Below, one piece after another: positions 4,652 to 41,484 of a stretch of 64,000 bases of DNA. Position numbers and translations under genes: made by a program. Numbering within the stretch: the stretch's first letter is position 1; every line of letters starts with the position of its first letter. The stretch is taken from the NCBI GenBank assembly GCA_040879805.1, contig JBBDJP010000001.1, forward strand, positions 614-64,613, written 5' to 3'. The notes below the pieces were generated by a model, which did no database searches, was not told where the DNA came from, and worked only from the letters and a program-made list of their open reading frames with translations. Source of the DNA: Candidatus Pacearchaeota archaeon. Its GTDB lineage: Archaea; Nanobdellota; Nanobdellia; Pacearchaeales; GW2011-AR1.

Positions 4652-5002
4652 ATGAAAATTCACAAAAATGATGTAAAATTAATTGGAGATGTCCAGAAAG
4701 GAGACCTATTAACAATAAGTCCAGATGAAGCAACAGAAAAGAGAAGAAACCCAGTGGGCCTTGTATCTAGAGTAAACAAAGATTCGAAGGATATCTTCAT
4801 ATATACAAAACATGAAATTCCAGAAAAGGAAAAAGGAAGATCTTTAGGAGGACTCTTAGAAATTCATTACAAACTGAAAGAAAAAGGTTTGGAAGAAATT
4901 GATTTACAAAGCTTCTTCATTTTCGACCATAGGTATAATAAAATTAGAGGCACGCTTGAAAAAAATAATTTACTTTATCAGACATCTGGGGGTGGAAAAT
5001 GA
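4652..5002 (+). CDS. Hypothetical small protein (116 aa) ending ...QTSGGGK; first gene of a three-gene cassette
   Basis: ORF with ATGA stop/start overlap to the next gene. No family recognised. Confidence 0.5.
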   Translation: MKIHKNDVKLIGDVQKGDLLTISPDEATEKRRNPVGLVSRVNKDSKDIFIYTKHEIPEKEKGRSLGGLLEIHYKLKEKGLEEIDLQSFFIFDHRYNKIRGTLEKNNLLYQTSGGGK

Positions 5003-5619
5003 TAGAAAATAAATTTGACCAACATATCAAAGACAGAAAAACTGAGACTATAAATATAGATCTATCTGAAATTGGAAAAGGTATTAAGGAATTTCTAAAA
5101 CAAACACTCAAAAGCAAGGAAATTGCTAAATTAGCTCCAACTGATAATGGGTGGGGAAGCTACAGAGGTCCCTTGTTTTATGCTTCTAAAAAAGAAATAT
5201 TAAATGAGATTCTTAAAGACAAATCTAACTTCCATAATTTCGGGAAGAAGGGAATTTTATATTCTGGTTACCTATTTGAACCTTTTTCAGGAATACTTCC
5301 AGGAGGGCATAACTGTTCTTATAATAGGGGTGCATTAAAATTTAGATTAGATAAATTTAAAGTTAACAGAGAAGAACATATTTCCGTAAGTGAAGTTGGA
5401 ATCAATTCAGCAAAAATATTCTCTAAAGAAATGAATTCAGATTTAGAAAAAGTTTCAAAAATACTCCAACCCCTGTACATGGTTGATGCGGGAGACACTT
5501 ACAATCCCAAATTGAATAAATTAGAGAGAAATATTGGAAACAAAATAAAAAAAATTGATAAAACTTCTTTAGAAAACTGCCTCGTGAATTATTTTATCAA
5601 TCCTCTTCTAAAAACCTAA
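4999..5619 (+). CDS. Hypothetical protein, paralogue A of the cassette
   Basis: Shares 'M-x-ENKFDQ-x-I', 'PLFY', 'xAGxxYNxxLxKxE' and C-terminal 'INPLxK' with the next ORF. Confidence 0.55.
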   Translation: MIENKFDQHIKDRKTETINIDLSEIGKGIKEFLKQTLKSKEIAKLAPTDNGWGSYRGPLFYASKKEILNEILKDKSNFHNFGKKGILYSGYLFEPFSGILPGGHNCSYNRGALKFRLDKFKVNREEHISVSEVGINSAKIFSKEMNSDLEKVSKILQPLYMVDAGDTYNPKLNKLERNIGNKIKKIDKTSLENCLVNYFINPLLKT

Positions 5620-5625
5620 AAGAAA

Positions 5626-6333
5626 ATGACAGAAAACAAGTTCGATCAATATATAGAAGAAAACGAAGAAAAACTCTTCACATTATCAAATAACGGAAAA
5701 GAAATTAAAGAAATTTTAACAAATGTATCTCAATCAAGATCAATTCCAAAAGTTCTAGACTTTCCTCTGTTTTATGTTATTTCCAAAAAAGACATCACTA
5801 AAGACGAATTGGAAAATCAAGATAAAATACGGCAATCAAATGCTCTTACAATTCCTTCAAATTACGATTCTGGTGGAAATAGGCATAACTTTGAGAATCT
5901 TCTCTACATAGATTACGATGAAAACTATTCAAGAAAGTTAACAGGAAGAGATTTCCACAAACCATTGTTTTTCTTTCATGAAAAAAGTAAAATCAAACTG
6001 AGGATAAAAGTAAATGAATTCAGAGTAGAAAAAGATCCTGAAACAAATATATCAAAAGTAAGTTATAATCTCTCTGAACATACAAACTGGGGATTGCCCT
6101 ATACCCAGTATTCTAAACTAAATAAAACTGACCTATCAAAAGTTGACTTAAATAAAATTTCAGAGATTATAGATTCAGGATATATTATTGGGGCAGGAGT
6201 AAAATACAATCTTAATCTGGAAAAGATTGAATATCAAATTCCTAAGTTTTTTAAAGATTTACAGGACTCAAAAGGTTTAGAAAAAATAATAAAAGAAAGA
6301 TGGATAAATCCTTTAATGAAGTTTGTAAAGTAA
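5626..6333 (+). CDS. Hypothetical protein, paralogue B of the cassette
   Basis: Collinear similarity to 4999..5619, with the same N- and C-terminal motifs. Confidence 0.55.
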   Translation: MTENKFDQYIEENEEKLFTLSNNGKEIKEILTNVSQSRSIPKVLDFPLFYVISKKDITKDELENQDKIRQSNALTIPSNYDSGGNRHNFENLLYIDYDENYSRKLTGRDFHKPLFFFHEKSKIKLRIKVNEFRVEKDPETNISKVSYNLSEHTNWGLPYTQYSKLNKTDLSKVDLNKISEIIDSGYIIGAGVKYNLNLEKIEYQIPKFFKDLQDSKGLEKIIKERWINPLMKFVK

Positions 6334-10573: not shown

Positions 10574-13255
10574 ATGCAAAAAGAGGTTGAAAAGAATAAG
10601 GAAACATCCGAATCCGAAAAACAAGATTTTATTAAATGGTTTTCAGAATTAAGTAAAGATTCTGGAAAAATTGTAGGAGGAAAAGGAGCTAATCTTGGAG
10701 AAATTTATAATCTTAAAATTTCTGTTCCTCCTGGATTTGTAGTTACTGCGCAAGCTTATAGTTATTTTATAAAAAAAGCAGATATTGATGACAAGATAAA
10801 AACTCTTCTTGAGAAAATAGATTATGAAAATACAAATCAATTAAGTCAGGTTACAAAAGAAATCAGAGAAATTATAGAAAAATCTAACTTTCCAAAAGAA
10901 CTTGAAGAAGAAATTGTGGAAGCTTATGAAACTCTTGGAGTTGAAGACAGTGCAAAAAACCTTCCCGCACATGATATTCTAAAAACAACTTCAGAAGAAT
11001 TCGTTGCTGTCAGAAGCAGTGCAACAACTGAAGATCTAGCCGAAGCAAGTTTTGCTGGACAACAAGATACTTATCTTAATGTTAAAGGAAAAAGGGAACT
11101 TCTAAATTCAATAAAAAAATGTTTTGCATCTCTATTTACAACAAGGGCAACATATTACAGAAACAAAAAAGGATTCAAACATGAAAATGCTCAACTTGCA
11201 GTAATAGTTCAAAAAATGGTTGATTCAAAGAAATCAGGAGTTATTTTCTCTAAAGATCCTTCAATGAATCGAGATCAAGTAATAATAGAAGCAGTATGGG
11301 GTTTGGGAGAAGGAATAGTTTCAGGGAAAATCTCTCCAGACAGATATATCTTAGAGAAAAAATCTGAAAATCCTGAAGATTCTGATGACCTTAAGCTTAT
11401 AAAAAAAGAAATTGGAAATAAGAAGATTGCGATCACAAGAGACTCCTCAGGAGAAAAAGAAATAGTTAAACTTAAAGAGGAAATTTCCAATAGACAAGTT
11501 CTAAAGGAATATGAAATAATCAAACTTTCTGAAATAGCTCTAAAACTAGAAAACCATTACAATAAACCTCAAGATATAGAATTCGCAATTGAAAATGATG
11601 ATATTTATATCGTTCAAACCAGGCCAATAACAACCATGAAAGGCAGAGGAGAGGTAGGAGCCAATAAAGAACTTAAAGGAGAAATTATCTTGAAAGGTCT
11701 TGCGGCCTCACCAGGAATTGGTTCTGGAAAAGTAAGAATAGTTAACGAAATTTCCGATCTGGAAAAAATAGAAAGTGGAGATATCCTTGTTACAGAAATG
11801 ACAAATCCAGATATGGTTGTAACAATGCAAAAATCTGCTGCAATTATAACAAATGAAGGGGGTCTTACTGCACATGCCTCAATAGTTTCTAGAGAAATGG
11901 GAATTCCTGCAGTTGTAGGAACTCAAGAAGCCACAACCAAATTAAAAGATGGAGATATTGTGACTGTTGATGGTTTTACAGGAAATATTTACAAAGGAAA
12001 GGTGGCAGAAAGTGTTCAAAAAGAAGTGAAACCAATAGAGTCTGAAACAAAAACAAAAATAAAGGTTATTGTGGATCTTCCAAGTTTTGCAGAAAGAGCT
12101 TCCAAAAGCAATTCAAAAGAAGTTGGGCTTGCAAGAATAGAAGGAATAATTGCAGAATCTGGAAAACATCCAAACTACTTTCTTGAAAAAAACCAGATAA
12201 ATGAATATGAAAAAATAATATATAAGGGAATAAATGAAATATCAAAATATTTTGAAGAAATTTGGGTAAGGACCTCAGATATAAGAAGTGATGAATTTCA
12301 TGAATTAGAAGGATCTTCAAAAGAAAAAGAGGCAAACCCTATGCTTGGAATGCACGGAATAAGATACAGTCTAAAAAAACCTAAGATACTTGAAGCAGAA
12401 CTTACTGCTATGAAAAAAGTTTCAGATGAAGGGAAAAAAATTGGTGTTTTAATTCCTCAAGTTATTTCTGTTGAAGAGGTAAAAAAAGTAAAAGAAACTC
12501 TTAAAAAAATTCAATTTTTCAAGGCAAAAGTAGGAGTAATGATTGAAACTCCTGCCTCTGTTCAAATTATTGAAGAAATCTGTAATGAAGGTATTGATTT
12601 TGTTTCATTTGGAACTAATGATCTCACACAATATACCCTTGCAATAGATAGAGGAAATGAACAAGTCCAAGAACTTTACAAAGAAACTCATCCTGCAATT
12701 CTTAAACAAATAAAACATGTAATTAAAATTTGTAAAGAAAAAGGGGTGGAAACAAGCATTTGTGGACAAGCAGGAAGCAAAAAAGAAATGGCAAAATTCC
12801 TTGTTGAACAAAAGATAGACAGTATAAGTACAAATGCAGATATGGCGGCAACAATTGCAGAATATGTTTCAAAACTTGAAAAAGGAGAAAATACTGAAGA
12901 CGTTGAAGAAAAAATGCCTGAAGAAAAAATACAACCGAAATTTAAAGAAGAAAATGAAAAAAAAGAACACTCTAAAAATAAAGAAAATGAGACTCCTGTA
13001 GAAAATAAAGATTTTGAAAAGGAACTGGAAAAATCTTCTGAAGGAAATCCTCAAAAAAAGAATGGGGAAGAAGAAAATGAAATTAATGAAAAAAGAACTC
13101 ACAATGATGGCGAACGTCAACTTGAAGAAGAAAATGATAATCTTAAAACCTCTGATGAAAAACTTGAGGGTCCTGAAATAAATGGGGTAAATCCTTCTTT
13201 AGAAAATAAAGATTTCGAAGATGAAGAAGAAAATGAAATTCTCGATATTTTCTAA
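10574..13255 (+). CDS. ppsA: Phosphoenolpyruvate synthase (pyruvate, water dikinase) with a long Glu/Lys-rich low-complexity C-terminal tail
   Basis: 'GGKGANLGE' marks the ATP-grasp N-domain. 'TNEGGLTAHASIVSREMGIPAVVG' marks the phospho-His swivel domain. 'FVSFGTNDLTQYTLAIDRGN' marks the PEP-utilising TIM barrel. The tail begins at about 12880. Confidence 0.9.
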   Translation: MQKEVEKNKETSESEKQDFIKWFSELSKDSGKIVGGKGANLGEIYNLKISVPPGFVVTAQAYSYFIKKADIDDKIKTLLEKIDYENTNQLSQVTKEIREIIEKSNFPKELEEEIVEAYETLGVEDSAKNLPAHDILKTTSEEFVAVRSSATTEDLAEASFAGQQDTYLNVKGKRELLNSIKKCFASLFTTRATYYRNKKGFKHENAQLAVIVQKMVDSKKSGVIFSKDPSMNRDQVIIEAVWGLGEGIVSGKISPDRYILEKKSENPEDSDDLKLIKKEIGNKKIAITRDSSGEKEIVKLKEEISNRQVLKEYEIIKLSEIALKLENHYNKPQDIEFAIENDDIYIVQTRPITTMKGRGEVGANKELKGEIILKGLAASPGIGSGKVRIVNEISDLEKIESGDILVTEMTNPDMVVTMQKSAAIITNEGGLTAHASIVSREMGIPAVVGTQEATTKLKDGDIVTVDGFTGNIYKGKVAESVQKEVKPIESETKTKIKVIVDLPSFAERASKSNSKEVGLARIEGIIAESGKHPNYFLEKNQINEYEKIIYKGINEISKYFEEIWVRTSDIRSDEFHELEGSSKEKEANPMLGMHGIRYSLKKPKILEAELTAMKKVSDEGKKIGVLIPQVISVEEVKKVKETLKKIQFFKAKVGVMIETPASVQIIEEICNEGIDFVSFGTNDLTQYTLAIDRGNEQVQELYKETHPAILKQIKHVIKICKEKGVETSICGQAGSKKEMAKFLVEQKIDSISTNADMAATIAEYVSKLEKGENTEDVEEKMPEEKIQPKFKEENEKKEHSKNKENETPVENKDFEKELEKSSEGNPQKKNGEEENEINEKRTHNDGERQLEEENDNLKTSDEKLEGPEINGVNPSLENKDFEDEEENEILDIF

Positions 13256-13323: not shown

Positions 13324-14022
13324 ATGGTTAAGACTTCAAAAAAAGGTGTAAAGAAAAAGTCAAAAAAGAAAGTAAGAAAACCTACTAAAAAAAATACTCA
13401 GAAAAAAACATCTCTGGAAAAAAAATATAATTCTGTGAAACAAAAAAAGACTGAAAAGATACTTGTAGATAATTTTGTTGCTCTTCAAAAAGTAATGGTA
13501 AATCTTTCTTCAAAGTTTGATAATCTTTCAACGCAAATTTCAAAATTGCTTGAACTCTTTGAAATTTCAGCCAAATCTCTTGCACAAAAAGATTTTGAAA
13601 AAGATAGAGATAAAAAGGAATCTAAAGAAATCCTTAAAAAATTGGACAATATTTCACAACAGGCTGGTTTAATTGGAAAGGGCCTAGTACTTATACATGA
13701 AAATAGTTCTGGAAAAGGATTTTCAACTCATGGAATGGGTTCTGAAAACAAATTTGAAAATATGGAAAAATCAAAAATGGTGAGGAGACCAATTAATATG
13801 CCAGGTCCTTCAAAATTCCCTCTTCCAAAAACAAATAAAAATCTTTCTCAACAAGATGGAAAAATATCCTCTAGACCTAAGGAATCCCCTAAATCTCAAG
13901 GAGAACCTAAACAAGGCTCGGAAGGTGTGACTCAAGAAATTGGGCAAAATCCAGAACAACAGAATAATTCCCAAAATCAAGAACAAATGTCACAGAAATC
14001 TCCGGGAACTCAAGAAATCTAG
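13324..14022 (+). CDS. Hypothetical protein with a Lys-rich N-terminus, a central helical region and a Gln/Pro/Ser-rich tail
   Basis: ORF 11 nt upstream of the next gene (probable operon). Low-complexity composition, no recognised domain. Confidence 0.5.
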   Translation: MVKTSKKGVKKKSKKKVRKPTKKNTQKKTSLEKKYNSVKQKKTEKILVDNFVALQKVMVNLSSKFDNLSTQISKLLELFEISAKSLAQKDFEKDRDKKESKEILKKLDNISQQAGLIGKGLVLIHENSSGKGFSTHGMGSENKFENMEKSKMVRRPINMPGPSKFPLPKTNKNLSQQDGKISSRPKESPKSQGEPKQGSEGVTQEIGQNPEQQNNSQNQEQMSQKSPGTQEI

Positions 14023-14033
14023 AGATAATTAAA

Positions 14034-14771
14034 ATGCTTAAAAAAACTTCTGAAAATCTTAGAGAATTCTTTATTTTAGAATTTACAAAAGAAATTATAA
14101 GAGGTACTGAAAAATATAGAGAAATTTTAATAAAAAAAGAAGTTCAAGAAGTCTTATCACACCATGAGTTTCTAAAAAAATTAGAAACTGAAAGAAAAAA
14201 TAAAAAGACAGAGAAGATTGGAAAGATTGTTCAAGAAAAAATAAAAGAAGAAAGAAAAAGAATTTCTAATCTAAGAGATGGAGGATTTGTACCAAAGCCA
14301 AAACCTCTGATAAAAAGAAAACTGAAAGAAAAAAGTCCCTTCAAAAATTCTTTTTTTAAAAAAAGCCATGATTCTTATTTTCATCCAAAAGTTATTAATT
14401 TGCCGCTACCTGAAACTGTTCGTGACATAAGACCTATTCCTGGAAAAGAAACTCTAAATCTTGAAAAACTAAATCCCTTGGTGCAAGATCCTTTAGTAAA
14501 ATCAATAGAATGTAATGGCCCTGGCCAAAAAATTGTTGTAAAAGGTGCTATGGGAATAAAAAATACAAGCATAACCCTCACAGAAGAAGATATAGATGAT
14601 GTTATAAATAAGTTTTCTAAAGCATCTAAAATTCCCGTTAGTACGGGTGTATTCAAGGTTGTTTATGGTAGATTAGTCTTATCTGCAATAATTTCTGAAG
14701 TGGTTGATTCAAAATTTATTATTAAAAAAATGTCTGAACCTGTATTGAAAGTTCCTTTGCCTTCAAGGTAA
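14034..14771 (+). CDS. Stand-alone protein resembling the N-terminal domain of FlaI/PilB/VirB11-type secretion ATPases; no ATPase core
   Basis: 'LNPLVQDPLVKSIECNGPGQKIVVKGAMGIKNTSITLTEEDIDDVINKFSKASKIPVSTG...GRLVLSAIISEVVDSKFIIKKM' follows the T2SSE N-domain pattern (DP-x-ED-I-x-NG ... IRKF). The ORF stops where Walker A would begin. Confidence 0.5.
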   Translation: MLKKTSENLREFFILEFTKEIIRGTEKYREILIKKEVQEVLSHHEFLKKLETERKNKKTEKIGKIVQEKIKEERKRISNLRDGGFVPKPKPLIKRKLKEKSPFKNSFFKKSHDSYFHPKVINLPLPETVRDIRPIPGKETLNLEKLNPLVQDPLVKSIECNGPGQKIVVKGAMGIKNTSITLTEEDIDDVINKFSKASKIPVSTGVFKVVYGRLVLSAIISEVVDSKFIIKKMSEPVLKVPLPSR

Positions 14772-14792: not shown

Positions 14793-16055
14793 TTAAAAAT
14801 TATCATCACTTAAATTATTAGACAGACTTTTTGCAATATCTTTAAGCCACCCTATCCTATCTCTCTCAATAAAAAGGTTCAAAGATTCGTTGCTAAGATC
14901 TGAATCATAAGCAAACTCTGAATAATAATTTCCCAATTCATATCTTAATACTATAAATCCATTTCTTTCAACTGCGCTATCTACTTCTACAGAGTCTTTT
15001 CCAAAACTCTCTAATAAAATTGAACTTTCATTTTCATTAAGCTCTAAATTATATTTCTCTTCATTCAAAAAAACATCTTCTTCTTGATTGATATCTGGAT
15101 TAGAAAAATCTATGTTATCTTCTCTTTCAACATCACTCTCTGAATCTTCAAAAGAGATAGAAGTATCATTAAGAAAATTTCCTTCAGAATCAATAAAAGT
15201 TTCAAAAGAAACTATGTCATCTCCTAAATGGACAATTTTTACAATAAATGTGCCTTCACTCAAACTTAAATTAAAATCAGAAAGATTAACTTCAAAGATT
15301 CCACCTCCCTCAACTCCTTCTATTTTTTCAGAATAATCTGTAGAAAAAATCACATTATTTTCTTTAGAAATATCTATTCCTATTATGTCACTCTGATTCA
15401 AAAAATTCCCTGAACTAGTCCTTATGCTTTCTGGAACGATCCGAACTTCTTTCAAGATATATTCTTTCCCACCTCTAATAATAAATTCTCCACTCATATT
15501 TTCACTTAAATTATGAGTATATTCTCTGTTTCTTGAGATTGTTGCACTAAAATTAATTGTACTTATATTCTCTGATCCGTTAATAATTTCTCCTGTTTCA
15601 TTAGAATAAGTTACCTCTTCTAAAACTATGCTTGAATTAAAATAAACTGTTGGATAAATAGTTTTATTTGTAAATTCTATATTGTTAAAAGTATTTTCAA
15701 GACTATACTCTTTCTGGGATCCTTCGTTTTCAAAAACAATTACTGAAGAAGAAGGAACAAAATCTCCTTCCTCTAAAGACAAATTCAAAATTCCTGTTAT
15801 CATGTTCCCTTCCCTAAAATCAGATTCCAAATCTAATGAAACCATGCCTGTGGGACTCTTATCAGAAAATGAAAAAAACACAATTGCCACCAAAATTAAA
15901 ATACCAAAAACTGCTAAAGAAATTTTTTTATAACTCAACCTCTCTTGACCCCTATATTCTGAAACAACTTTACCATCAACTCTTTTACTATGATAGATAT
16001 AAGGCCCATATACTTTTCCGCCTCTCTTTATATATTTTTTATAAGCCATCTTCAA
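14793..16055 (-). CDS. Membrane-anchored surface protein, sequon-rich and acidic (hypothetical)
   Basis: A basic N-terminal motif 'YKKYIKRGGKVYGPYIYHSKRVDGKVVSEYRG' precedes the TM helix 'ISLAVFGILILVAIVFFSF'. The ectodomain carries many N-x-S/T sites. Confidence 0.6.
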   Translation of the reverse strand: MKMAYKKYIKRGGKVYGPYIYHSKRVDGKVVSEYRGQERLSYKKISLAVFGILILVAIVFFSFSDKSPTGMVSLDLESDFREGNMITGILNLSLEEGDFVPSSSVIVFENEGSQKEYSLENTFNNIEFTNKTIYPTVYFNSSIVLEEVTYSNETGEIINGSENISTINFSATISRNREYTHNLSENMSGEFIIRGGKEYILKEVRIVPESIRTSSGNFLNQSDIIGIDISKENNVIFSTDYSEKIEGVEGGGIFEVNLSDFNLSLSEGTFIVKIVHLGDDIVSFETFIDSEGNFLNDTSISFEDSESDVEREDNIDFSNPDINQEEDVFLNEEKYNLELNENESSILLESFGKDSVEVDSAVERNGFIVLRYELGNYYSEFAYDSDLSNESLNLFIERDRIGWLKDIAKSLSNNLSDDNF

Positions 16056-16123
16056 ATTAAACCAAGCATTAAAAACAACTTAAGAATGTATTTAAATTTT
16101 TCTGGAAGAAGAGATAGTTAAAA

Positions 16124-17239
16124 CTACTGTCCGCAATTACTTGCTTCCCATACGGAGTATCCTTCACTAGATGTTATATTTGCGAGATTATCTCCTACAG
16201 GAATATTTAATCCCAATTCAGAACGATTCAAATCTTCATAATAAAGTGCTGAAGATATCCCAAAACATCTTGTTTCGGAAGAACTTGTAAAGTTAATTGA
16301 ATAAGAAGTATATCCTGTAAGATTTGACTGGCTTTTTGGAAGATCTTCACTTTGGAACCTATTTGCATCTCCTGATTCAGGCCAAACAGAGAAAATTGTT
16401 CCTTCATTTACAGGATCATTCAGAGTACAATCTCCGCTTTCATCAGGAGTAAACCCTGTTTCACATGTACATTGATTGAGGTCACATCCAGCTCCTCCTG
16501 TATCTTCATCACACTCATAAACATCTTCTTCATAATATACCTGTTCCCAAGTTCCATCACAAAGTGCTACACATTCTCCAGACTCACACTTGAATCCATC
16601 ATTACACTCAGTATCATCTACACACTGATCACCTTCACCAGTTTCATTGCCTTCTTCTCCTCCTTCACCACTCTCGCCATCACCATCATCACCTATAGGG
16701 TTAGCAGAACCTGAAGAACCTAAAGTATAAGAAAATGATCTTGGACAAAGTTGTTCATTTCCATTATCATCTAAAAAATAAGGTGCAATATCAAAACGAT
16801 TAGCATTGATTACTATATTTCCTTGGGACGTATCGACAGTTTCTGTTTTAGATTCAAGGGGCTCAAGAGATCCTCCAAATTCCAAAGGTCCACTAGCAAT
16901 GTTGGATGAATTAAAGAAAAGAACTTTGGCTCCATTAATCTCCTCACCTGTAGAGCTTCTTTCTAAAGTAACTGAATAATTTCCATCCTGGCCTTCAACA
17001 GGGGAAACCCTCACAGTTTCAAAACCAATTTGGTTACAAAGAGAACTCAACTCAACTTGTTCAGCCCCGCCTTCAATCACATTACTTATCACAGCCCAGA
17101 TAATTCCTACTGCCACGAGAACTAAAAGAATTATTACCAATGTCGCCACAACGGTCGACAAACCTCTTTTGTTTTCATTTAAAATAGAATATTTCAATTT
17201 TAAATTATGTTGAAAAAACTTTAACCCCTCTTTTTTCAT
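16124..17239 (-). CDS. Archaeal type IV pilin-like protein (class III signal peptide) with an acidic Gly/Glu linker and a Cys-rich module
   Basis: 'KRGLSTVVATLVIILLVLVAVGIIWAVISN' matches the archaeal pilin/archaellin N-terminal signature. The protein also contains 'GDDGDGESGEGGEEGNETGEGD' and 'CVDDTECNDGFKCESGECVALCDG...CDLNQCTCETGF...GDC'. Confidence 0.65.
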   Translation of the reverse strand: MKKEGLKFFQHNLKLKYSILNENKRGLSTVVATLVIILLVLVAVGIIWAVISNVIEGGAEQVELSSLCNQIGFETVRVSPVEGQDGNYSVTLERSSTGEEINGAKVLFFNSSNIASGPLEFGGSLEPLESKTETVDTSQGNIVINANRFDIAPYFLDDNGNEQLCPRSFSYTLGSSGSANPIGDDGDGESGEGGEEGNETGEGDQCVDDTECNDGFKCESGECVALCDGTWEQVYYEEDVYECDEDTGGAGCDLNQCTCETGFTPDESGDCTLNDPVNEGTIFSVWPESGDANRFQSEDLPKSQSNLTGYTSYSINFTSSSETRCFGISSALYYEDLNRSELGLNIPVGDNLANITSSEGYSVWEASNCGQ

Positions 17240-27873: not shown

Positions 27874-29079
27874 ATGAATACAAAAACAACAAACTGGGTA
27901 GAAAAGTATAGGCCAAAATATTTTGGAGATGTTAGAGGCCAGGATCTAGCAGTTGAAAAACTAAGAGAGTTTGTTAAAAATTTTAAAAGAAAAGGTAGAG
28001 GTAAAAAAGCTATTATTTTACATGGTCCTCCTGGAACTGGAAAAACAACTCTTGCCTATGTTTCTGCGAATGAATCTGATGCCGAAATTTTTGAGTTGAA
28101 CGCATCAGATCTAAGAAATAAACAAAACCTTAAAGAAATTTTGAAACCTGCAATTGAACAGCAATCACTTACAAAAAAGAGAAAAATAATTCTTGTTGAT
28201 GAGGTTGATGGAATCTCTGGAGTTGATAGGGGAGGTGTTTCTGAACTAAAAAGACTAATAGACTCAACATCTTATCCAATAATAATAACTGCAAATGATA
28301 TATGGGATAAAAAATTCACCCCCATAAGAAAAAAATCTGAAGTGATAAAATTAAAAGAAATTGACTATAAAACAATAAAAAGCGTTATGATTAATACCTT
28401 GAAAAAGGAGAATAAGTTCCTTGATGGAGATCTCCTTACCAATCTTGCTATAAAATCTAAGGGAGATTTAAGAGCGGCAATTAACGATCTACAAATAGCA
28501 GCAGATTTAGAAGAACCTGAAAAGATTCTGTTTGATGAAAGAAATAAAGAGACAGATATATTTAACGCATTACGAATGATTTTCAAAGGCAAACCAAACA
28601 AAGCCATATTGAGAATTTTTGATTCTGTTAATAAACCTCTTGATGAAATAATCCTCTGGATTGAAGAAAATATTCCTTCAGAATATCAAGGAGAAGAGTT
28701 GGCAAAAGCGTATGAATTATTAAGTAAAGTAGACATATTCAAAAGGAGAATTTACAAACAACAATATTGGAGGTTTCTTGTTTACGAAAATGCTCTTCTT
28801 AGTTATGGAATTTCAAGCTCGAAAAAAACTGAGAAATATGGGTTTACTAGCTATAAAAAACCTTCAAGAATTTTAAAAATGTGGATAAACAATCAAAAAA
28901 TAAGGCATAAGAAATCCATTGTTAAAAAATACTCAAAATTTGTTCATGTTGGTGAAAAAAGGGCTCTTAAGGAATTTCCAATGATAAAAAAATTCTTGAT
29001 TAAACCTGAAGTTCAAAAAGAATTAAGACTCTCCGAAGATGAAGTTGGCTATCTTAAAAAGGTGTTGTCTAAAAATTAA
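27874..29079 (+). CDS. rfcL: Replication factor C large subunit
   Basis: 'WVEKYRPKYFGDVRGQ', 'GPPGTGKTT', 'ILVDEVDGISG', with a longer C-terminal helical domain. Confidence 0.9.
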   Translation: MNTKTTNWVEKYRPKYFGDVRGQDLAVEKLREFVKNFKRKGRGKKAIILHGPPGTGKTTLAYVSANESDAEIFELNASDLRNKQNLKEILKPAIEQQSLTKKRKIILVDEVDGISGVDRGGVSELKRLIDSTSYPIIITANDIWDKKFTPIRKKSEVIKLKEIDYKTIKSVMINTLKKENKFLDGDLLTNLAIKSKGDLRAAINDLQIAADLEEPEKILFDERNKETDIFNALRMIFKGKPNKAILRIFDSVNKPLDEIILWIEENIPSEYQGEELAKAYELLSKVDIFKRRIYKQQYWRFLVYENALLSYGISSSKKTEKYGFTSYKKPSRILKMWINNQKIRHKKSIVKKYSKFVHVGEKRALKEFPMIKKFLIKPEVQKELRLSEDEVGYLKKVLSKN

Positions 29080-30623
29080 GAAATTCTTTTGTAAGCGTCT
29101 ATAATTTTCCTTGGAATTGAAGGAAAATTATTTTCAAATTTAGAATTTATCTCTTTCAAGAAAGTAAATCCTTCCATTCTTGATTTAATATTTGAATCTA
29201 CTAACTCAATATTTTCTCCATCAACATTTACTCTTACAGGACCTAAATTTTTTGCTAGCCAACGAGTTGCCTGAAAATCTTCAGAAATTCTATCCCCATT
29301 ACGATCTAAATTCATCGAAAAATTCTCCTGAACTTTTAAACAATCTCCAAAGGGTCTACCACTTCTAAGAAGAACATTCTCTGTATCAACATAATTATAA
29401 TTTTCTACCACCTTTCCAGTTATATCTGATTGATCCTCAAAAACTATTTTTGATTCTGTTCTAAAATTTCTCCCTTTTTTTATTTTATTATCTCCAAATT
29501 CAAGAGCAGGATCAAAAAATACATTTCCTAATTCTGGGAAATTGAATCCATAATAGTTTAATGAGTTTCCTTTAAACCCAAAATACTCTTCAAGACCATT
29601 AATATTCTCAACAACAGCCAAATATTCTCCTTTAACTCTTCTCTTCCCTGTAACCCTTAAAGTTAAATTATGTCTACCATAATTATAAGTCCAGGAATTT
29701 CCTTCATTTATTGGAAATAAATCTCTCACATCCACTTCAGAGTCCTTGTCAGACATTGAGGAGGGAAAAAAGACTAATTTTGGACCATTTAGAAGAGGAG
29801 TATATATTGAATATCTTTGGTGTTTATCAATTAAATCTAGGTCTTTTCTCTCTCTAAATTTATTGATCATGTCAATAGCCTCATCAACAACCTCTAAAAT
29901 TTTTCCATTTGTCTCAAAAACAGAATAAGCTGAAGCAGTTGCAGGATTTGGGAATAAAAGAGTAGCTCCGGCAAAAGCATTTTTCAAGATTGTATTAAGA
30001 TTTTTCAAATTGTCAAAAGATGAATCTCCAAGATAAAGATATCCCGGAAGATCATCAAAATCTTTCAAATCCCAAATTGGGATTGAATCTTTAATTTCAT
30101 CAATAAAAAGATTAAAGTCAGATTGTTTGGCTTTTTGAAAATTCCATGAAAAATATCCTGTATTAGTATTCATTCTTAAATCAGCATTTTCCAACCTCTT
30201 AACAAGAGAAAATCTTGAGCTATTATCAGGAATAGAAATTAGTTTTGGCATATATCTCCCTTGAGGATCTGAAGCAAGCAAAAATCCCTTATTTCCATAA
30301 CGATATTCTCTAAAGAAATTGATATCTAAACCTGGCGCCTCTCCTCCTGAAAAACCTTCTGTGAAAAATTTTACGAAAATTTCATCATCATACATATCAT
30401 GAAAACTAACAAATCCAGAATCATTAGTTACATCCTTTGCAGCAGAATAATCTGGCTTATTATATGCATTATCTACAAGTATCTCAAGACTTTCCCAAGG
30501 ATCCTTATCTTCTGAACCACCAATCAAACCCCCATTCTTCCCACAACCATACATTAAAGGAGTTCCTAATGCAACACCTCCTGTAGCCAATGCAGTTTTT
30601 CTTAGGAAACTCTTCCTATCCAT
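29076..30623 (-). CDS. Predicted secreted lipoprotein with a Tat-like/lipobox signal (hypothetical)
   Basis: The N-terminus 'MDRKSFLRKTALATGGVALGTPLMYGCGKNGG' has an R-K-x-F-L-x-K motif, a hydrophobic region and a Cys. No catalytic motif recognised. Confidence 0.55.
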   Translation of the reverse strand: MDRKSFLRKTALATGGVALGTPLMYGCGKNGGLIGGSEDKDPWESLEILVDNAYNKPDYSAAKDVTNDSGFVSFHDMYDDEIFVKFFTEGFSGGEAPGLDINFFREYRYGNKGFLLASDPQGRYMPKLISIPDNSSRFSLVKRLENADLRMNTNTGYFSWNFQKAKQSDFNLFIDEIKDSIPIWDLKDFDDLPGYLYLGDSSFDNLKNLNTILKNAFAGATLLFPNPATASAYSVFETNGKILEVVDEAIDMINKFRERKDLDLIDKHQRYSIYTPLLNGPKLVFFPSSMSDKDSEVDVRDLFPINEGNSWTYNYGRHNLTLRVTGKRRVKGEYLAVVENINGLEEYFGFKGNSLNYYGFNFPELGNVFFDPALEFGDNKIKKGRNFRTESKIVFEDQSDITGKVVENYNYVDTENVLLRSGRPFGDCLKVQENFSMNLDRNGDRISEDFQATRWLAKNLGPVRVNVDGENIELVDSNIKSRMEGFTFLKEINSKFENNFPSIPRKIIDAYKRIS

Positions 30624-39357: not shown

Positions 39358-40320
39358 ATGAAGCAAAATCCAAAAATGAAACCTCTTCTTTTTGAAAGAA
39401 TGAAAAAACTTCTTGGAGATGACTTTGAAAACTACTTAAAAATTCTTGAAGAAAAGTCACCTAAGTCTATAAGATGTAATACACTTAAAATTTCTCCAGA
39501 AGAACTTAAAAAAAGACTTATCAAAAAGGGTTGGAAAATTGAACAGCCTTTCAAAGATTATCTTGAAGTCATGATAGTCAAAAACAAACTTGAACCAGGG
39601 GAACTTGGAAGAAGTCTCGAGCACCTTTTAGGATATTATTATGTTCAAGAGATTGCTAGTATGATTCCTGTTCTTGTACTTAAACCAGAAAAAGATCAAA
39701 TGGTGCTTGATCTCTGTGCAGCCCCTGGAAGTAAAACAACTCAAACTGCAGCAAAAATGGAAAACACTGGAACAATAATTGCAAATGAAGTAAGCCTTGG
39801 AAGAGTTAAAATTTTAGCCTCAAACACTGAAAGGTGTGGAGTGACTAATATGATAATAACAAAAAAAGAAGGTTCTTTTTTATGTAGAAAATTGAAAGAT
39901 CTAGAAATAAAATTTGATAAGATACTTATAGATGCACCTTGTTCTGGAGAGGGAACTTTAAGAAGTTCAAAGATGACTTACAAAATGTGGAATATTCACA
40001 CTGTAAAAAAACTTTCAAAAGTTCAAAAAAATCTCTTGGCTTTTGCAATTGAAATTATAAAACCTGGCGGAGAAATTGTTTATAGTACTTGCACTCATGC
40101 TCCTGAGGAAAATGAAGAAATAGTTAACTTCATATTAAAGAAATTCAAAAATATGGAGGTTGTAAAAATTAATATTCCATTAAAAACTAGACCTGGAATA
40201 CAAAGATGGGAAGACAAAGAATATCATGAAGATGTGAAATATTCTTGTAGAATCTATCCTCAAGACAATAATACGGACGGATTTTTTATAGCCAAACTGA
40301 AGAAAAAAAATGAAAACTAA
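39358..40320 (+). CDS. NOL1/NOP2/Sun-family RNA cytosine-C5 methyltransferase
   Basis: SAM motif 'VLDLCAAPGSKTTQ' and the catalytic Cys motifs 'DAPCSGEGTLR' and 'VYSTCT'. Confidence 0.85.
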   Translation: MKQNPKMKPLLFERMKKLLGDDFENYLKILEEKSPKSIRCNTLKISPEELKKRLIKKGWKIEQPFKDYLEVMIVKNKLEPGELGRSLEHLLGYYYVQEIASMIPVLVLKPEKDQMVLDLCAAPGSKTTQTAAKMENTGTIIANEVSLGRVKILASNTERCGVTNMIITKKEGSFLCRKLKDLEIKFDKILIDAPCSGEGTLRSSKMTYKMWNIHTVKKLSKVQKNLLAFAIEIIKPGGEIVYSTCTHAPEENEEIVNFILKKFKNMEVVKINIPLKTRPGIQRWEDKEYHEDVKYSCRIYPQDNNTDGFFIAKLKKKNEN

Positions 40321-40987
40321 AATAATTGCTACGATTGGTCCTGCAAGTTACAAAGAAAGAATACTGGAAAAGATGAAAAAAGAAGGGATGAATATAATGA
40401 GAATAAATATGAAACATATATCTGAAAAAAAATTGATGAAAATTTATCCCATCATGAAAAAACTAGATTTAAAAATAATGATCGATATAAAAAATCTTAA
40501 AGAACTTCAATTTGTTAAAGATTATGAATATGATTACTTAGCAATTTCTTTTGCATCTTCAGTTTCTCAAATAGAAAAAATAGAAAATCTGGCTAAGAAA
40601 GGAGTAAAAATAATTTCTAAAATAGAAAATAAAAAAGGTGTTGATAACTTCAAAAATATTTTGAATAAAAGTTATGGAATTATGATTGCTCGTGGAGACT
40701 TAGCAAAGAACATCTCTTTTGAAAAAGTCCCTGCAGTGCAAAAAAGAATGATAAAAGAATGTAACAAAAAGGGAAAATTTTCTATAACTGCTACAGAAAT
40801 GCTACATTCCATGACCCAAAACAAAACTCCAAAAAGATCTGAAGTGTCAGATATAGCTAATGCCATTTTTGAAAAATCTAAGGCTTTAATGCTTTCAGAA
40901 GAAACCGCCATAGGAAAATATCCTGCCCTTACAATTAAAGTTATGAAAAAAATAATTATGGAGGCTGAAAAAGAAACAAAAAGATGA
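40310..40987 (+). CDS. Pyruvate-kinase-like protein consisting only of the A (TIM-barrel) domain; no B lid and no C domain
   Basis: 'TKIIATIGPAS', 'MNIMRINMKH', 'IMIDIK', 'ISKIENKKG', 'IMIARGDLA', 'ITATEMLHSM', 'PKRSEVSDIANAI' and 'ALMLSEETAIGKYP' are collinear with PK motifs. The protein is only 225 aa. Confidence 0.7.
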   Translation: MKTKIIATIGPASYKERILEKMKKEGMNIMRINMKHISEKKLMKIYPIMKKLDLKIMIDIKNLKELQFVKDYEYDYLAISFASSVSQIEKIENLAKKGVKIISKIENKKGVDNFKNILNKSYGIMIARGDLAKNISFEKVPAVQKRMIKECNKKGKFSITATEMLHSMTQNKTPKRSEVSDIANAIFEKSKALMLSEETAIGKYPALTIKVMKKIIMEAEKETKR

Positions 40988-41484
40988 CTTCACAAAAATC
41001 AGGTCCAAAATTTACGCCGCTAAAAATCTTAAATACTCGTGAAAAGACTGAAATTGAAGAAAAATTAAGGGAACAATTTGGAATTGAAGAAATTCCAGGA
41101 ACACTTATTAAAAGAGGAAAAGAAAGGATTTTTCTTTACAATGGATTTTTAGAAAAAAGAGATATAAAAAGACTTGAAAAATTAGTTATTATTGAAAGAG
41201 CAGGAATTTACTTTGCAAAGATAGTTTTTGGGGAAGATGGTGAAATAAGACTTAGTCTTGAGGGAACTCAAATATTAAAAGATAAAATAAAAAGAAATGT
41301 TTATAATTTAAACAAAAAGCAGGCGGAAGAATGGATGAAGGGTGGTGAACTTAGAATTAAAACAGGAAGACGGGGATTTCTAGTTATGAAATATGGAGAG
41401 GATTTTCTTGGTTGTGGAAAGGCTTCTGCAGAAAAAATTGGAAACTTTATTCCAAAGAACAGAAGACTTAAGAGAAAAGGTTAG
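40984..41484 (+). CDS. Nip7-like / PUA-domain RNA-binding protein (tentative)
   Basis: At 166 aa it shows a two-module layout. The C-terminal 'GFLVMKYGEDFLGCGKASAEKIGNFIPKNRRL' resembles the PUA end of archaeal Nip7. ATGA overlap with the preceding gene. Confidence 0.45.
   Translation: MTSQKSGPKFTPLKILNTREKTEIEEKLREQFGIEEIPGTLIKRGKERIFLYNGFLEKRDIKRLEKLVIIERAGIYFAKIVFGEDGEIRLSLEGTQILKDKIKRNVYNLNKKQAEEWMKGGELRIKTGRRGFLVMKYGEDFLGCGKASAEKIGNFIPKNRRLKRKG

What the first reader, a model, noticed from the sequence alone, without database searches (positions are those of the whole stretch)
40310..40987. A-domain-only mini pyruvate kinase
This 225-aa ORF carries, in order, essentially all pyruvate-kinase A-domain motifs. 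They are 'TKIIATIGPAS', 'RINMKH', 'IMIDIK', 'SKIENKKG', 'ARGDLA', 'ATEMLHSM', 'PKRSEVSDIANAI' and 'LMLSEETAIGKYP'. The sequence jumps directly from the 'IDIK' strand to the strand after the B domain, and it terminates right after the last barrel helix. It therefore lacks the B (lid) domain and the whole C (allosteric/tetramerisation) domain, making it about half the size of any canonical PK. The catalytic Arg, Asn, Asp, Lys, Glu, Asp and Thr positions appear retained. Either this is a minimal PK, or the barrel has been repurposed, for example as another PEP/pyruvate-family enzyme.
Basis: partly seen in the sequence, partly recalled or inferred. Interest (0 to 1): 0.7.

Follow-up and report, generated by a model that had tools for sequence, protein, structure and literature searches.

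The report
Lidless mini pyruvate kinase barrel
This tiny-celled archaeon encodes a real, widely conserved pyruvate-kinase relative that keeps only the catalytic barrel and has lost both the lid and the regulatory domain, so it is unclear whether the "pyruvate kinase" called in thousands of such genomes can still make ATP.

Summary
ORF 40310-40987 (+) encodes 225 aa that match only the pyruvate kinase (PK) barrel: Pfam PF00224, E=5.7e-57, in two stretches. The roughly 105-residue B (lid) domain is replaced by a two-residue link, and the protein stops after barrel helix 8, so there is no C domain. AlphaFold gives a complete eight-stranded barrel (pLDDT 95.3). Its best structural matches are all PKs (TM 0.90-0.95).

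It is not an assembly artefact. No B- or C-domain coding sequence occurs anywhere in the window. More than 2,500 homologues exist, and the best 120 are all 222-277 aa, from Nanoarchaeota, Woesearchaeota and Pacearchaeota assemblies.

The PEP, Mg2+ and proton-transfer residues are invariant. The nucleotide-phosphate ligands Arg119 and Lys206 went with the lid. The K+ ligand Ser76 is an invariant lysine (K35).

Related lidless forms occur in CPR bacteria (barrel only, barrel plus C domain, barrel plus LOG domain) and, apparently independently, in Chloroflexota. No conserved partner gene was found. The window also encodes PEP synthase.

My best reading is a minimal, unregulated PEP-to-pyruvate enzyme, probably still a kinase, with K35 acting as a built-in cation. 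Activity is untested, and I found no published description. It is a new variant of a known kind, of moderate to high interest.

The parts
40310..40987 (+). Mini pyruvate kinase gene: 225 aa, A-domain (beta/alpha)8 barrel only
   Evidence: ORF. Pfam PF00224 E=5.7e-57. AlphaFold pLDDT 95.3 with eight strands. Foldseek best 50 matches are all PKs, TMq 0.90-0.95. 2,533 homologues at E<=1e-10.
40400..40417 (+). Motif R31-I-N33-M-K35-H36, equivalent to rabbit-muscle PK R72-L-N74-F-S76-H77. The PEP-phosphate Arg and the Asn are kept. The K+ ligand Ser76 is replaced by Lys35.
   Evidence: R31, N33 and K35 are invariant in 117/117 mini homologues. In the sample, Lys at this position occurs in all lidless forms except P0127 and P0128, and in only one lid-bearing PK (P0231).
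40484..40495 (+). D59-I60-K61-N62: the end of strand beta3 (D59 = Asp112, I60 = Thr113 position) and the two-residue link that replaces the whole B domain
   Evidence: DSSP of the model shows strand 55-60 followed directly by helix 63-69. Only 18 residues lie between D59 and A78, against 105-132 in lid-bearing PKs. D59 is invariant.
40619..40627 (+). K104-I-E106 (rabbit K269, E271): the catalytic Lys and a Mg2+ ligand
   Evidence: Invariant in 117/117. Aligned to SKIEN of PKs.
40691..40699 (+). R128-G129-D130 (rabbit R293-G294-D295): a Mg2+ ligand and PEP binding
   Evidence: Invariant in 117/117.
40793..40798 (+). T162-E163 (rabbit T327, Q328): the proton-donor Thr. Gln328 is Glu in this protein.
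   Evidence: Invariant in 117/117. Glu at this position also occurs in some lid-bearing PKs.
40895..40906 (+). S196-E197-E198-T199 (rabbit S361-G362-E363-T364)
   Evidence: S196, E197 and E198 are invariant in 117/117, T199 in 115/117.
39358..40320 (+). Context: the upstream, overlapping gene, which is the methyltransferase core of an RsmF/NOL1-NOP2-Sun-type RNA m5C methyltransferase
   Evidence: Pfam PF01189 and PF17125. Matches RsmF model PRK11933 positions 14-312 of 480.
40984..41484 (+). Context: the downstream, overlapping gene, which is the C-terminal (PUA-like) part of the same RsmF-type protein
   Evidence: Pfam PF13636. Matches RsmF model PRK11933 positions 325-468 of 480. The same three-gene order occurs in L001. 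In L010 the methyltransferase-PK order recurs, but the contig ends inside the PK gene.
10574..13255 (+). Context: PEP synthase (pyruvate, water dikinase), the other PEP/pyruvate enzyme in the window
   Evidence: TIGR01418 scores 785.7 bits (cut-off 739.75) and NF005057 scores 821.7 bits (cut-off 598). Pfam PPDK_N, PEP-utilizers and PEP-utilizers_C.

Best explanation
The gene encodes a genuine, functional member of the pyruvate kinase family reduced to its catalytic (beta/alpha)8 barrel. It belongs to a large clade of such proteins in DPANN archaea (Nanoarchaeota, Woesearchaeota, Pacearchaeota).

Shown:
- The barrel is complete.
- The B lid is replaced by a two-residue link between strand beta3 and helix alpha3.
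- The chain ends after helix alpha8, so there is no C domain.
- All residues that bind PEP and Mg2+ and protonate enolpyruvate are invariant: R31, K104, E106, G129/D130, T162, S196 and E198.

Inferred:
- The enzyme still converts PEP to pyruvate at the canonical site, most probably still passing the phosphate to ADP or another NDP, so it would be a minimal PK.
- The invariant Lys35 sits at the position of the K+ ligand Ser76. Its ammonium group would supply the positive charge that K+ (or Lys117 in K+-independent PKs) supplies in ordinary PKs. It may also partly substitute for the lost lid residues Arg119 and Lys206 in holding the nucleotide phosphates.
- Without the C domain there can be no allosteric control and no C-C tetramer contact. 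The enzyme would then be constitutive, probably a monomer or an A-A dimer.
- Catalysis in an open active site should be slower and more prone to hydrolysis than in a lidded PK.
For: Family assignment:
- Pfam PK barrel E=5.7e-57, with no other family at E<=0.01.
- 45-48% identity to full-length PKs over the barrel.
- AlphaFold pLDDT 95.3, pTM 0.91, eight strands.
- Foldseek best 50 matches are all PKs, TMq 0.90-0.95. They include 7QDN, an engineered human liver PK with the B domain deleted, which shows that the fold survives without the lid.

Purifying selection on the active site:
- R31, N33, K35, D59, K104, E106, R128, G129, D130, T162, E163, S196, E197 and E198 are invariant in 117 homologues that are only 50-65% identical overall.
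- Position 36 (His77, next to the nucleotide site) is always aromatic: Y, H, W or F.

The Lys at the Ser76 position goes with loss of the lid in this clade. Established knowledge says a built-in Lys (E117K) makes PKs K+-independent (abstract of PMC4374775).

Not an artefact:
- No B or C remnants in the window or in 26 other lidless loci.
- Native base composition, 27.3% against 30.6% GC.
- The N-terminus and length are shared by the best 120 homologues.

The metabolic setting is plausible. The Nanobdellota preprint reports enolase, PGK and GAPDH in nearly all Woesearchaeales, but a threshold-passing PK in only 39 of 123.
Against: - Arg119 and Lys206 were lost with the lid. UniProt lists these as ATP-binding residues of PKM, which I cite from my own knowledge.
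- In studied PKs, closure of the lid is considered part of nucleotide binding and catalysis (PMC4374775). Phosphoryl transfer to ADP may therefore be poor or absent.
- All full-length PK equivalog models score below their cut-offs, for example TIGR01064 at 250 bits against 306.4.
- The window encodes PEP synthase. That enzyme can itself interconvert PEP and pyruvate. Together with an unregulated PK it would risk a futile cycle.
- I found no activity data for any natural or engineered lidless PK.
- Whether this genome also has a full-length PK is unknown, since only 64 kb was visible.
Confidence: 0.5

Rival explanations
1. Nucleotide-independent enzyme at the old PK site. Without the lid, the barrel hydrolyses PEP to pyruvate and phosphate (a PEP phosphatase). 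Alternatively, it uses known nucleotide-independent side reactions of PK, namely oxaloacetate decarboxylation or enolpyruvate ketonisation. It would then supply pyruvate without making ATP.
For: - The nucleotide-phosphate ligands Arg119 and Lys206 are gone, and the active site is open to water.
- The PEP, Mg2+ and proton-donor residues are invariant.
- An acylphosphatase gene, another hydrolase of energy-rich phosphates, lies immediately upstream in L005, L015 and L091.
- PEP synthase in the window already provides a nucleotide-linked PEP/pyruvate route.
- Oxaloacetate decarboxylation by PK needs only a divalent cation. This comes from my own knowledge of the classical PK literature and was not checked here.
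Against: - Discarding the energy of PEP is costly for organisms that the Nanobdellota preprint describes as having almost no other ATP source.
- The acylphosphatase neighbourhood is confined to one syntenic lineage, at least for L005 and L091, and sits among unrelated housekeeping genes.
- A-domain positions next to the nucleotide site stay conserved: T8, G10, P11, N33 and an aromatic residue at 36.
Confidence: 0.25
2. PEP-dependent phosphotransferase with a different acceptor, or one that needs a partner. The barrel keeps PEP as donor, but the lid's role in positioning the acceptor is taken by another protein or domain, or the acceptor is not a nucleotide.
For: - In CPR bacteria the same barrel-only form is fused to a LOG/SLOG nucleotide-binding domain (P0127 and L016). 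This is a possible 'Rosetta stone' for a partner that handles nucleotides.
- Lys35 is an invariant new residue in the active site.
Against: - Across the different genomic contexts examined, no neighbouring gene is conserved beyond single lineages.
- The LOG fusion is seen only in a small CPR subgroup that has Ser rather than Lys at position 35.
- No separately encoded B domain occurs near any lidless locus.
Confidence: 0.15
3. Non-catalytic remnant. The gene is a decaying or regulatory leftover of a PK in a shrinking genome.
For: - DPANN genomes are reduced.
- The protein fails the full-length PK model cut-offs.
Against: - Every catalytic residue is invariant in 117 homologues at only 50-65% overall identity.
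- The link replacing the lid has a fixed 18-residue spacing in all members.
- The predicted fold has very high confidence.
- The family has thousands of members across two domains of life.
Confidence: 0.05
4. Artefact. A frameshift, misassembly or wrong gene call has cut a normal PK.
For: An A9 run lies just upstream of the start codon.
Against: - No B- or C-domain coding sequence occurs in any frame of the 64 kb.
- The same gene length and the same neighbours occur in independent assemblies (L001, L002, L010).
- The best 120 homologues are all 222-277 aa.
Confidence: 0.01

Closest known systems
Canonical pyruvate kinase (EC 2.7.1.40; Pfam PF00224 + PF02887; for example Bathyarchaeia PKs of about 460 aa, E. 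coli PykF, rabbit muscle PK)
   Same: It has the same (beta/alpha)8 A domain, at 45-50% identity to archaeal full-length PKs. It has the same PEP, Mg2+ and proton-donor residues. The predicted structure superposes on PK A domains at TM 0.90-0.95.
   Different: - There is no B (lid) domain, so no Arg119 or Lys206.
- There is no C domain, so no effector site and no C-C interface.
- The K+ ligands are changed: Ser76 to Lys and Thr113 to Ile.
- It is half the usual size.
K+-independent PKs with an internal lysine at position 117 (E117K type)
   Same: A built-in positive charge is proposed to replace the monovalent cation.
   Different: In this protein the lysine sits at the Ser76 position on strand beta2 of the barrel. 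It is not at position 117 in the hinge, which has been deleted. The equivalence is an inference and is not demonstrated (abstract of PMC4374775).
Engineered human liver PK with the B domain deleted (PDB 7QDN and the 5SC8-5SDT series)
   Same: The A domain folds stably without the lid. These chains are among the best structural matches.
   Different: That protein is man-made and keeps the C domain and the tetramer. I could find no activity data for it. The protein here is natural, conserved, and lacks the C domain as well.
Natural lidless PK homologues that keep the C domain (CPR bacteria, 344-401 aa; Chloroflexota, Solirubrobacterales and Desulfobacterales, about 380-390 aa)
   Same: The B domain is replaced by a short link (16-32 residues between the D59 and A78 equivalents). 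The CPR forms share the Lys at the Ser76 position and cluster with the mini forms.
   Different: - They retain PK_C, PF02887.
- The Chloroflexota type keeps Ser or Ala at position 76 and the 'DLPG' hinge start.
- The Chloroflexota type clusters apart, which suggests an independent loss.
- All of these are uncharacterised too.
C-domain-less PKs of about 330-350 aa (A+B only; NCBIfam NF005234/PRK06739 type)
   Same: They have lost the allosteric C domain.
   Different: They keep the lid.
HpcH/HpaI aldolase and other PEP/pyruvate-superfamily barrels
   Same: They share a distantly related TIM-barrel fold with a divalent-metal site.
   Different: The window protein does not match PF03328 at E<=0.01. 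A few homologues give only weak, sub-threshold hits. The active-site motifs are those of PK.

Membership tests
Pyruvate kinase family (PF00224 barrel) | Significant match to the PK barrel profile above the curated cut-off | tested here: met
   193.7 bits against a cut-off of 30, E=5.7e-57, in two stretches that flank the missing lid.
Pyruvate kinase family (PF00224 barrel) | Catalytic and ligand residues of the A domain: Arg72, Asn74, Asp112, Lys269, Glu271, Gly294/Asp295, Thr327, Ser361, Glu363 (rabbit numbering) | tested here: met
   R31, N33, D59, K104, E106, G129/D130, T162, S196 and E198 are present, and invariant in 117 homologues.
Canonical pyruvate kinase, EC 2.7.1.40 (full-length equivalog) | Score above the curated cut-off of the full-length PK models (TIGR01064, PRK05826 and others) | tested here: not met
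   TIGR01064 scores 250.0 against 306.4. NF004491 scores 252.4 against 432. All seven models score below their cut-offs.
Canonical pyruvate kinase, EC 2.7.1.40 (full-length equivalog) | B (lid) domain inserted between beta3 and alpha3, carrying the nucleotide-phosphate ligands Arg119 and Lys206 | tested here: not met
   Only 18 residues lie between D59 and A78, against 105-132 in lid-bearing PKs. In the model, strand 55-60 runs straight into helix 63-69. No B-domain sequence occurs anywhere in the window.
Canonical pyruvate kinase, EC 2.7.1.40 (full-length equivalog) | C-terminal alpha/beta domain (PF02887): effector site and tetramer contact | tested here: not met
   There is no PF02887 hit. 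The chain ends about 10 residues after the barrel's last helix. No C-domain match occurs in the window.
Canonical pyruvate kinase, EC 2.7.1.40 (full-length equivalog) | Monovalent-cation site (Asn74, Ser76, Asp112, Thr113 carbonyl) | tested here: inconclusive
   Asn and Asp are kept. Ser76 is Lys35 and Thr113 is Ile60. Bona fide archaeal PKs also lack Ser76, for example Ala50 in the P. aerophilum PK (PMC4374775). This feature is therefore not strictly defining.
Canonical pyruvate kinase, EC 2.7.1.40 (full-length equivalog) | Catalyses PEP + ADP -> pyruvate + ATP | not testable with these tools
   This needs an enzyme assay. I found no published assay of any lidless PK.
HpcH/HpaI aldolase / citrate lyase beta (PF03328) | Profile match above the cut-off | tested here: not met
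   The window protein gives no hit at E<=0.01. Relatives give at best 18-20 bits against a cut-off of 25.
DPANN/CPR lidless PK clade (defined here) | Barrel-only length of about 220-240 aa, a fixed two-residue beta3-alpha3 link, and Lys at the Ser76 position | tested here: met
   The best 120 homologues are 222-277 aa. The spacing is 18 residues in all sampled members, and K35 is invariant.

The most novel reading that the evidence does not exclude
The lidless barrel is no longer a kinase. With Lys35 in the old K+ site and no nucleotide-clamping lid, it would carry out a nucleotide-independent or new-acceptor reaction on PEP, such as hydrolysis or transfer to something other than ADP.

If so, the automatic 'pyruvate kinase' label on thousands of DPANN and CPR proteins, and on the larger lidless family in Chloroflexota, would be wrong. 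The last ATP-yielding step of glycolysis would be missing from the energy budgets drawn for these organisms.

The opposite outcome would be almost as notable. If the protein is a fully competent 225-aa kinase, the lid domain would be shown to be dispensable for phosphoryl transfer.
Probability: 0.35. Interest if true: 0.75.

Novelty: new variant of a known kind. Interest (0 to 1): 0.58.

Why it matters
- **Textbook model.** PK is a standard example of an enzyme in which a mobile lid closes over the active site and a separate domain provides allosteric control. A natural barrel-only form under strong purifying selection, half the normal size, tests directly what the lid and the K+ ion are needed for. 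It could also define the minimal catalytic unit.

- Metabolic reconstructions of DPANN archaea and CPR bacteria hinge on whether PEP can be turned into ATP. The Nanobdellota preprint treats PK as the only substrate-level phosphorylation enzyme it detects in Pacearchaeales. These mini proteins score below the full-length NCBIfam model cut-offs. Yet NCBI and JGI label them 'pyruvate kinase'. They may therefore be counted inconsistently, and their real activity is unknown.

- **Easy to test.** The protein is small and predicted with very high confidence, so expression and assay should be straightforward.

Tried and rejected
**Ideas rejected**
- **Frameshift or split gene.** tblastn with PKs that carry the B and/or C domains against the whole window, and with seven B-domain sequences against the window plus 26 lidless loci, found nothing. 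Rejected.
- **HpcH/HpaI or another barrel family.** No Pfam hit. Rejected.
- **A conserved partner gene that could act as a lid.** I clustered the neighbours of 27 loci and examined further contexts. Only lineage-specific synteny appeared: RsmF halves in WIN, L001 and L010, and acylphosphatase-PK-RNase H in L005 and L091. Rejected as a general feature.
- **Functional link to the flanking RNA methyltransferase.** The arrangement is confined to one lineage. Rejected as a clue to function.

**Searches and look-ups that led nowhere**
- **Literature.** Eight full-text searches and several papers gave no description of a natural lidless PK and no activity data for the engineered B-deleted human PKL of PDB 7QDN.
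- **Extending the view beyond the window.** I wanted to look for a second PK or glycolytic genes. One look-up returned only a 5.6-kb duplicate contig, and the other found nothing.
- **Halobacterial hits in the genome scan.** They looked lidless from their short match spans, but they are full-length PKs of 567-600 aa.
- **Measuring where Lys35 points in the model.** Coordinates are not exposed to the scripting environment.
Full report
**1. The observation**

It overlaps the upstream gene by 11 nt (that gene's stop is at 40318-40320). It overlaps the downstream gene by the ATGA at 40984-40987.

Against Pfam it matches only the pyruvate kinase barrel, PF00224, at 193.7 bits and E=5.7e-57. The match falls in two stretches. 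Against solved structures the best hit is S. aureus PK 3t05. Residues 2-55 align to 24-81 and residues 59-221 align to 192-357, so about 110 residues of the PK, the B domain, are skipped. The query ends where the A domain ends.

All seven full-length PK models of NCBIfam match the protein, but all score below their curated cut-offs. TIGR01064, for example, scores 250.0 against 306.4. This is what a protein missing two of three domains should do.

**2. Not an artefact**

- tblastn with six PKs (four full-length, two lidless forms with a C domain) against all 64 kb finds only the barrel at 40307-40981. Nothing else reaches E<1.
- Seven B-domain sequences searched against the window and 26 other lidless loci give only noise, E>0.2.
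- The gene's GC content (27.3%) is close to the window's (30.6%).
- A search of 5.8 billion proteins finds 2,533 homologues at E<=1e-10. The best 120 are all 222-277 aa, carry only PF00224, and are 50-65% identical to the query. Where they are named, they come from Nanoarchaeota, Woesearchaeota and Pacearchaeota assemblies and are labelled 'pyruvate kinase' or 'hypothetical'.

**3. Anatomy**

AlphaFold2 with an 86-sequence alignment gives mean pLDDT 95.3 and pTM 0.91. The model has eight strands, at residues 4-8, 29-33, 55-60, 76-79, 100-105, 123-127, 157-161 and 192-195, alternating with helices. This is a complete (beta/alpha)8 barrel. Strand beta3 (55-60) runs through K61-N62 straight into helix alpha3 (63-69). 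In ordinary PKs the B domain is inserted at exactly this point.

Foldseek against the PDB returns only pyruvate kinases among the best 50 matches: TM-score on the query 0.90-0.95, rmsd 1.1-3.1 A. They include 7QDN, an engineered human liver PK 'from which the B domain has been deleted'.

Key positions in 117 mini homologues, in rabbit-muscle numbering mapped by motif:

| Rabbit PK residue | Window residue | Conservation in 117 homologues |
|---|---|---|
| Arg72 | R31 | invariant |
| Asn74 | N33 | invariant |
| Ser76 (K+ ligand) | K35 | Lys in 117/117 |
| His77 | H36 | always aromatic: Y 79, H 34, W 3, F 1 |
| Asp112 | D59 | invariant |
| Thr113 | I60 | I, V or L |
| Lys269 | K104 | invariant |
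| Glu271 | E106 | invariant |
| Arg293-Gly294-Asp295 | R128-G129-D130 | invariant |
| Thr327 | T162 | invariant |
| Gln328 | E163 | invariant Glu |
| Ser361-Gly362-Glu363 | S196-E197-E198 | invariant |

Glu at the Gln328 and Gly362 positions also occurs in some lid-bearing PKs. The hinge residues, including position 117, and the lid residues Arg119 and Lys206 are deleted.

**4. Relatives and evolution**

An exhaustive HMMER search of 1.84 billion cluster representatives, followed by alignment, shows a graded series of architectures:

- canonical A+B+C forms of about 450-480 aa;
- A+B forms of about 330-350 aa;
- lidless A+C forms of 344-387 aa (P0124, P0134, P0148, P0216, P0224, P0227);
- lidless barrel-only forms of 221-259 aa;
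- a lidless barrel fused to a LOG/SLOG domain (P0127 and L016; Pfam PF03641 and PF18306).

Where these carry source names, the lidless A+C form P0124 and the barrel-only P0128 come from Parcubacteria or Patescibacteria, that is, CPR bacteria.

In that sample, Lys at the Ser76 position is found in all lidless forms except P0127 and P0128. Among lid-bearing PKs only one, P0231, has it.

A scan of one genome per GTDB species adds more:

- barrel-only forms in Woesearchaeota and Nanoarchaeota (L008-L011, L015, L044) and in CPR (L012-L014, L018);
- forms with only a stub of the lid that keep 'DLSGPR' (L024, L049);
- a separate lidless A+C type in Dehalococcoidales, Chloroflexia, Solirubrobacterales and Desulfobacterales (L017, L019, L022, L023, L025, L028).

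That last type is itself a large family. The best 120 hits are 352-421 aa, carry PF00224 and PF02887, and the named ones are all labelled 'pyruvate kinase'.

In neighbour-joining trees of the barrel columns the DPANN mini forms make one clade. Its sister is the CPR barrel-only group, and the CPR A+C forms with Lys lie nearby. The Chloroflexota type and the stub forms cluster elsewhere, with Ser or Ala at position 76. These trees carry no support values. They suggest at least two independent losses of the lid, with the C domain lost after the lid in the DPANN/CPR line.

The closest full-length relatives are Bathyarchaeia PKs, at 42-50% identity. They already have Ala at position 76 ('RINTAYG') and 'TATEML'.

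**5. Surroundings**

The window is from a DPANN-type archaeon. It encodes family-B DNA polymerase, RFC, FEN1, an eRF1-type protein, Nre, CDC48, ThrRS with the archaeal editing domain, archaeal UMP kinase and several other aminoacyl-tRNA synthetases.

The only other central-carbon enzyme seen is PEP synthase at 10574..13255, which passes both equivalog cut-offs.

The mini-PK gene lies between the two halves of a split RsmF-type RNA methyltransferase. The upstream ORF matches RsmF model positions 14-312 of 480, and the downstream ORF matches positions 325-468. This order recurs in L001/L002. In L010 the upstream half is also present, but the contig ends inside the PK gene.

Other members sit in unrelated contexts. 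One Pacearchaeota-type synteny is acylphosphatase-PK-RNase H, seen in L005 and L091. L015 also has an acylphosphatase gene directly upstream. Clustering the neighbours of 27 loci found no gene family shared by more than three loci. There is therefore no conserved partner that could stand in for the lid.

**6. Mechanism**

Shown: the barrel and its PEP, Mg2+ and proton-relay residues are under strong purifying selection. This is a working enzyme that acts on PEP, pyruvate or a close analogue.

Inferred: it most likely still converts PEP to pyruvate. Whether ADP is the acceptor is the open question.

For a kinase:
- The protein is very close to bona fide PKs.
- Barrel positions next to the nucleotide site are retained: T8, G10, P11, N33 and the aromatic residue at 36.
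- The relatives' genomes generally hold enolase, PGK and GAPDH, while a threshold-passing PK is reported in only 39 of 123 Woesearchaeales (preprint 10.64898/2026.05.13.725050).

Against a kinase:
- Arg119 and Lys206 are lost, and so is lid closure, which the PK literature treats as part of forming the nucleotide site (PMC4374775).
- PEP synthase in the same genome offers an alternative route.

The invariant Lys35 sits at a K+-ligand position. It is best explained as a built-in cation, by analogy with Lys117 of K+-independent PKs (abstract of PMC4374775). This is an inference. I could not measure the geometry.

Loss of the C domain implies no allosteric regulation.

My probabilities: minimal kinase about 0.5, nucleotide-independent PEP/oxaloacetate enzyme about 0.25, other acceptor or partner-dependent about 0.15, non-catalytic about 0.05, artefact about 0.01.

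**7. Comparison with what is known, and novelty**

The protein is a member of the PK barrel family. It fails three defining features of canonical PK: the lid, the C domain and the full-length model cut-offs. I therefore file it as a PK-family variant, not as an established EC 2.7.1.40 enzyme.

C-less PKs (A+B) are known to NCBIfam (NF005234). An engineered B-deleted human PKL exists as a crystallographic tool (7QDN). I found no paper that describes natural lidless PKs or reports the activity of any lidless PK. My search covers open-access full text only.

The sequences are already in public databases under automatic names. What is new here is the recognition of the architecture and its signature Lys. 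Hence 'new variant of a known kind'.

**8. Verdict**

Interest is moderate to high, 0.58. The protein is a clean natural experiment on what the PK lid and the K+ ion are for. It also bears on the ATP budgets inferred for DPANN and CPR organisms. Its activity is untested, and the family, though undescribed, is a reduction of a very well-known enzyme rather than a new kind of system.

Noticed in passing
window 39358-40320 and 40984-41484: An RsmF-type RNA m5C methyltransferase is split into two genes exactly at a domain boundary. The upstream ORF matches RsmF model PRK11933 positions 14-312 of 480, and the downstream ORF matches positions 325-468 (the PUA-like end). The mini-PK gene sits between them. 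Both halves are in the same reading frame and the PK gene is in another. The same order occurs in L001/L002. In L010 the methyltransferase half lies upstream, but the contig ends inside the PK gene.
   Followed up: partly
window 10574-13255: PEP synthase (pyruvate, water dikinase) of 893 aa, about 100 aa longer than the family models. The models end near residue 773, which leaves an unexplained C-terminal extension of about 120 aa.
   Followed up: partly
L016 5989-7335 (Candidatus Parcubacteria) and P0127: A lidless PK barrel is fused to a LOG/SLOG ('possible lysine decarboxylase', PF03641/PF18306) nucleotide-binding domain. The protein is 448 aa.
   Followed up: partly
L017, L019, L022, L023, L025, L028 (Dehalococcoidales, Chloroflexia, Desulfobacterales, Solirubrobacterales): A second, apparently independent and large family of lidless PKs that keep the C domain. 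They are about 380-390 aa and have Ser or Ala at position 76. All the named ones are labelled 'pyruvate kinase' and all come from uncultured organisms.
   Followed up: partly
L024 5992-6795 and L049 4374-5312 (Paceibacterota, Yanofskybacteria): PKs whose lid is reduced to a stub of about 20 residues, with no C domain. They keep 'DLSGPR', so an Arg falls at the position 117 that governs K+ dependence.
   Followed up: no
L005 5713-5988, L015 2561-2845, L091 3714-4001: An acylphosphatase gene lies immediately upstream of the mini-PK gene. In L005 and L091 it is part of a conserved run: radical SAM, DNA alkylation repair, TruB, RNA methyltransferase, acylphosphatase, PK, RNase H.
   Followed up: partly
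L018 (contig CAZDOJ010000001.1, 1.32 Mb): A record titled 'uncultured Gammaproteobacteria bacterium' carries a barrel-only PK that clusters with the CPR forms. The taxonomic label may be wrong.
   Followed up: no
window 14793-17239, 29076-30623, 13324-14771, 4999-6333: Several sizeable ORFs (206-515 aa) have no Pfam match at E<=1e-4.
   Followed up: no
P0231 (471 aa, from the representative search): This is the only lid-bearing PK in the sample with Lys at the Ser76 position. It clusters next to the lidless CPR forms, which hints that the Lys substitution came before the loss of the lid.
   Followed up: no
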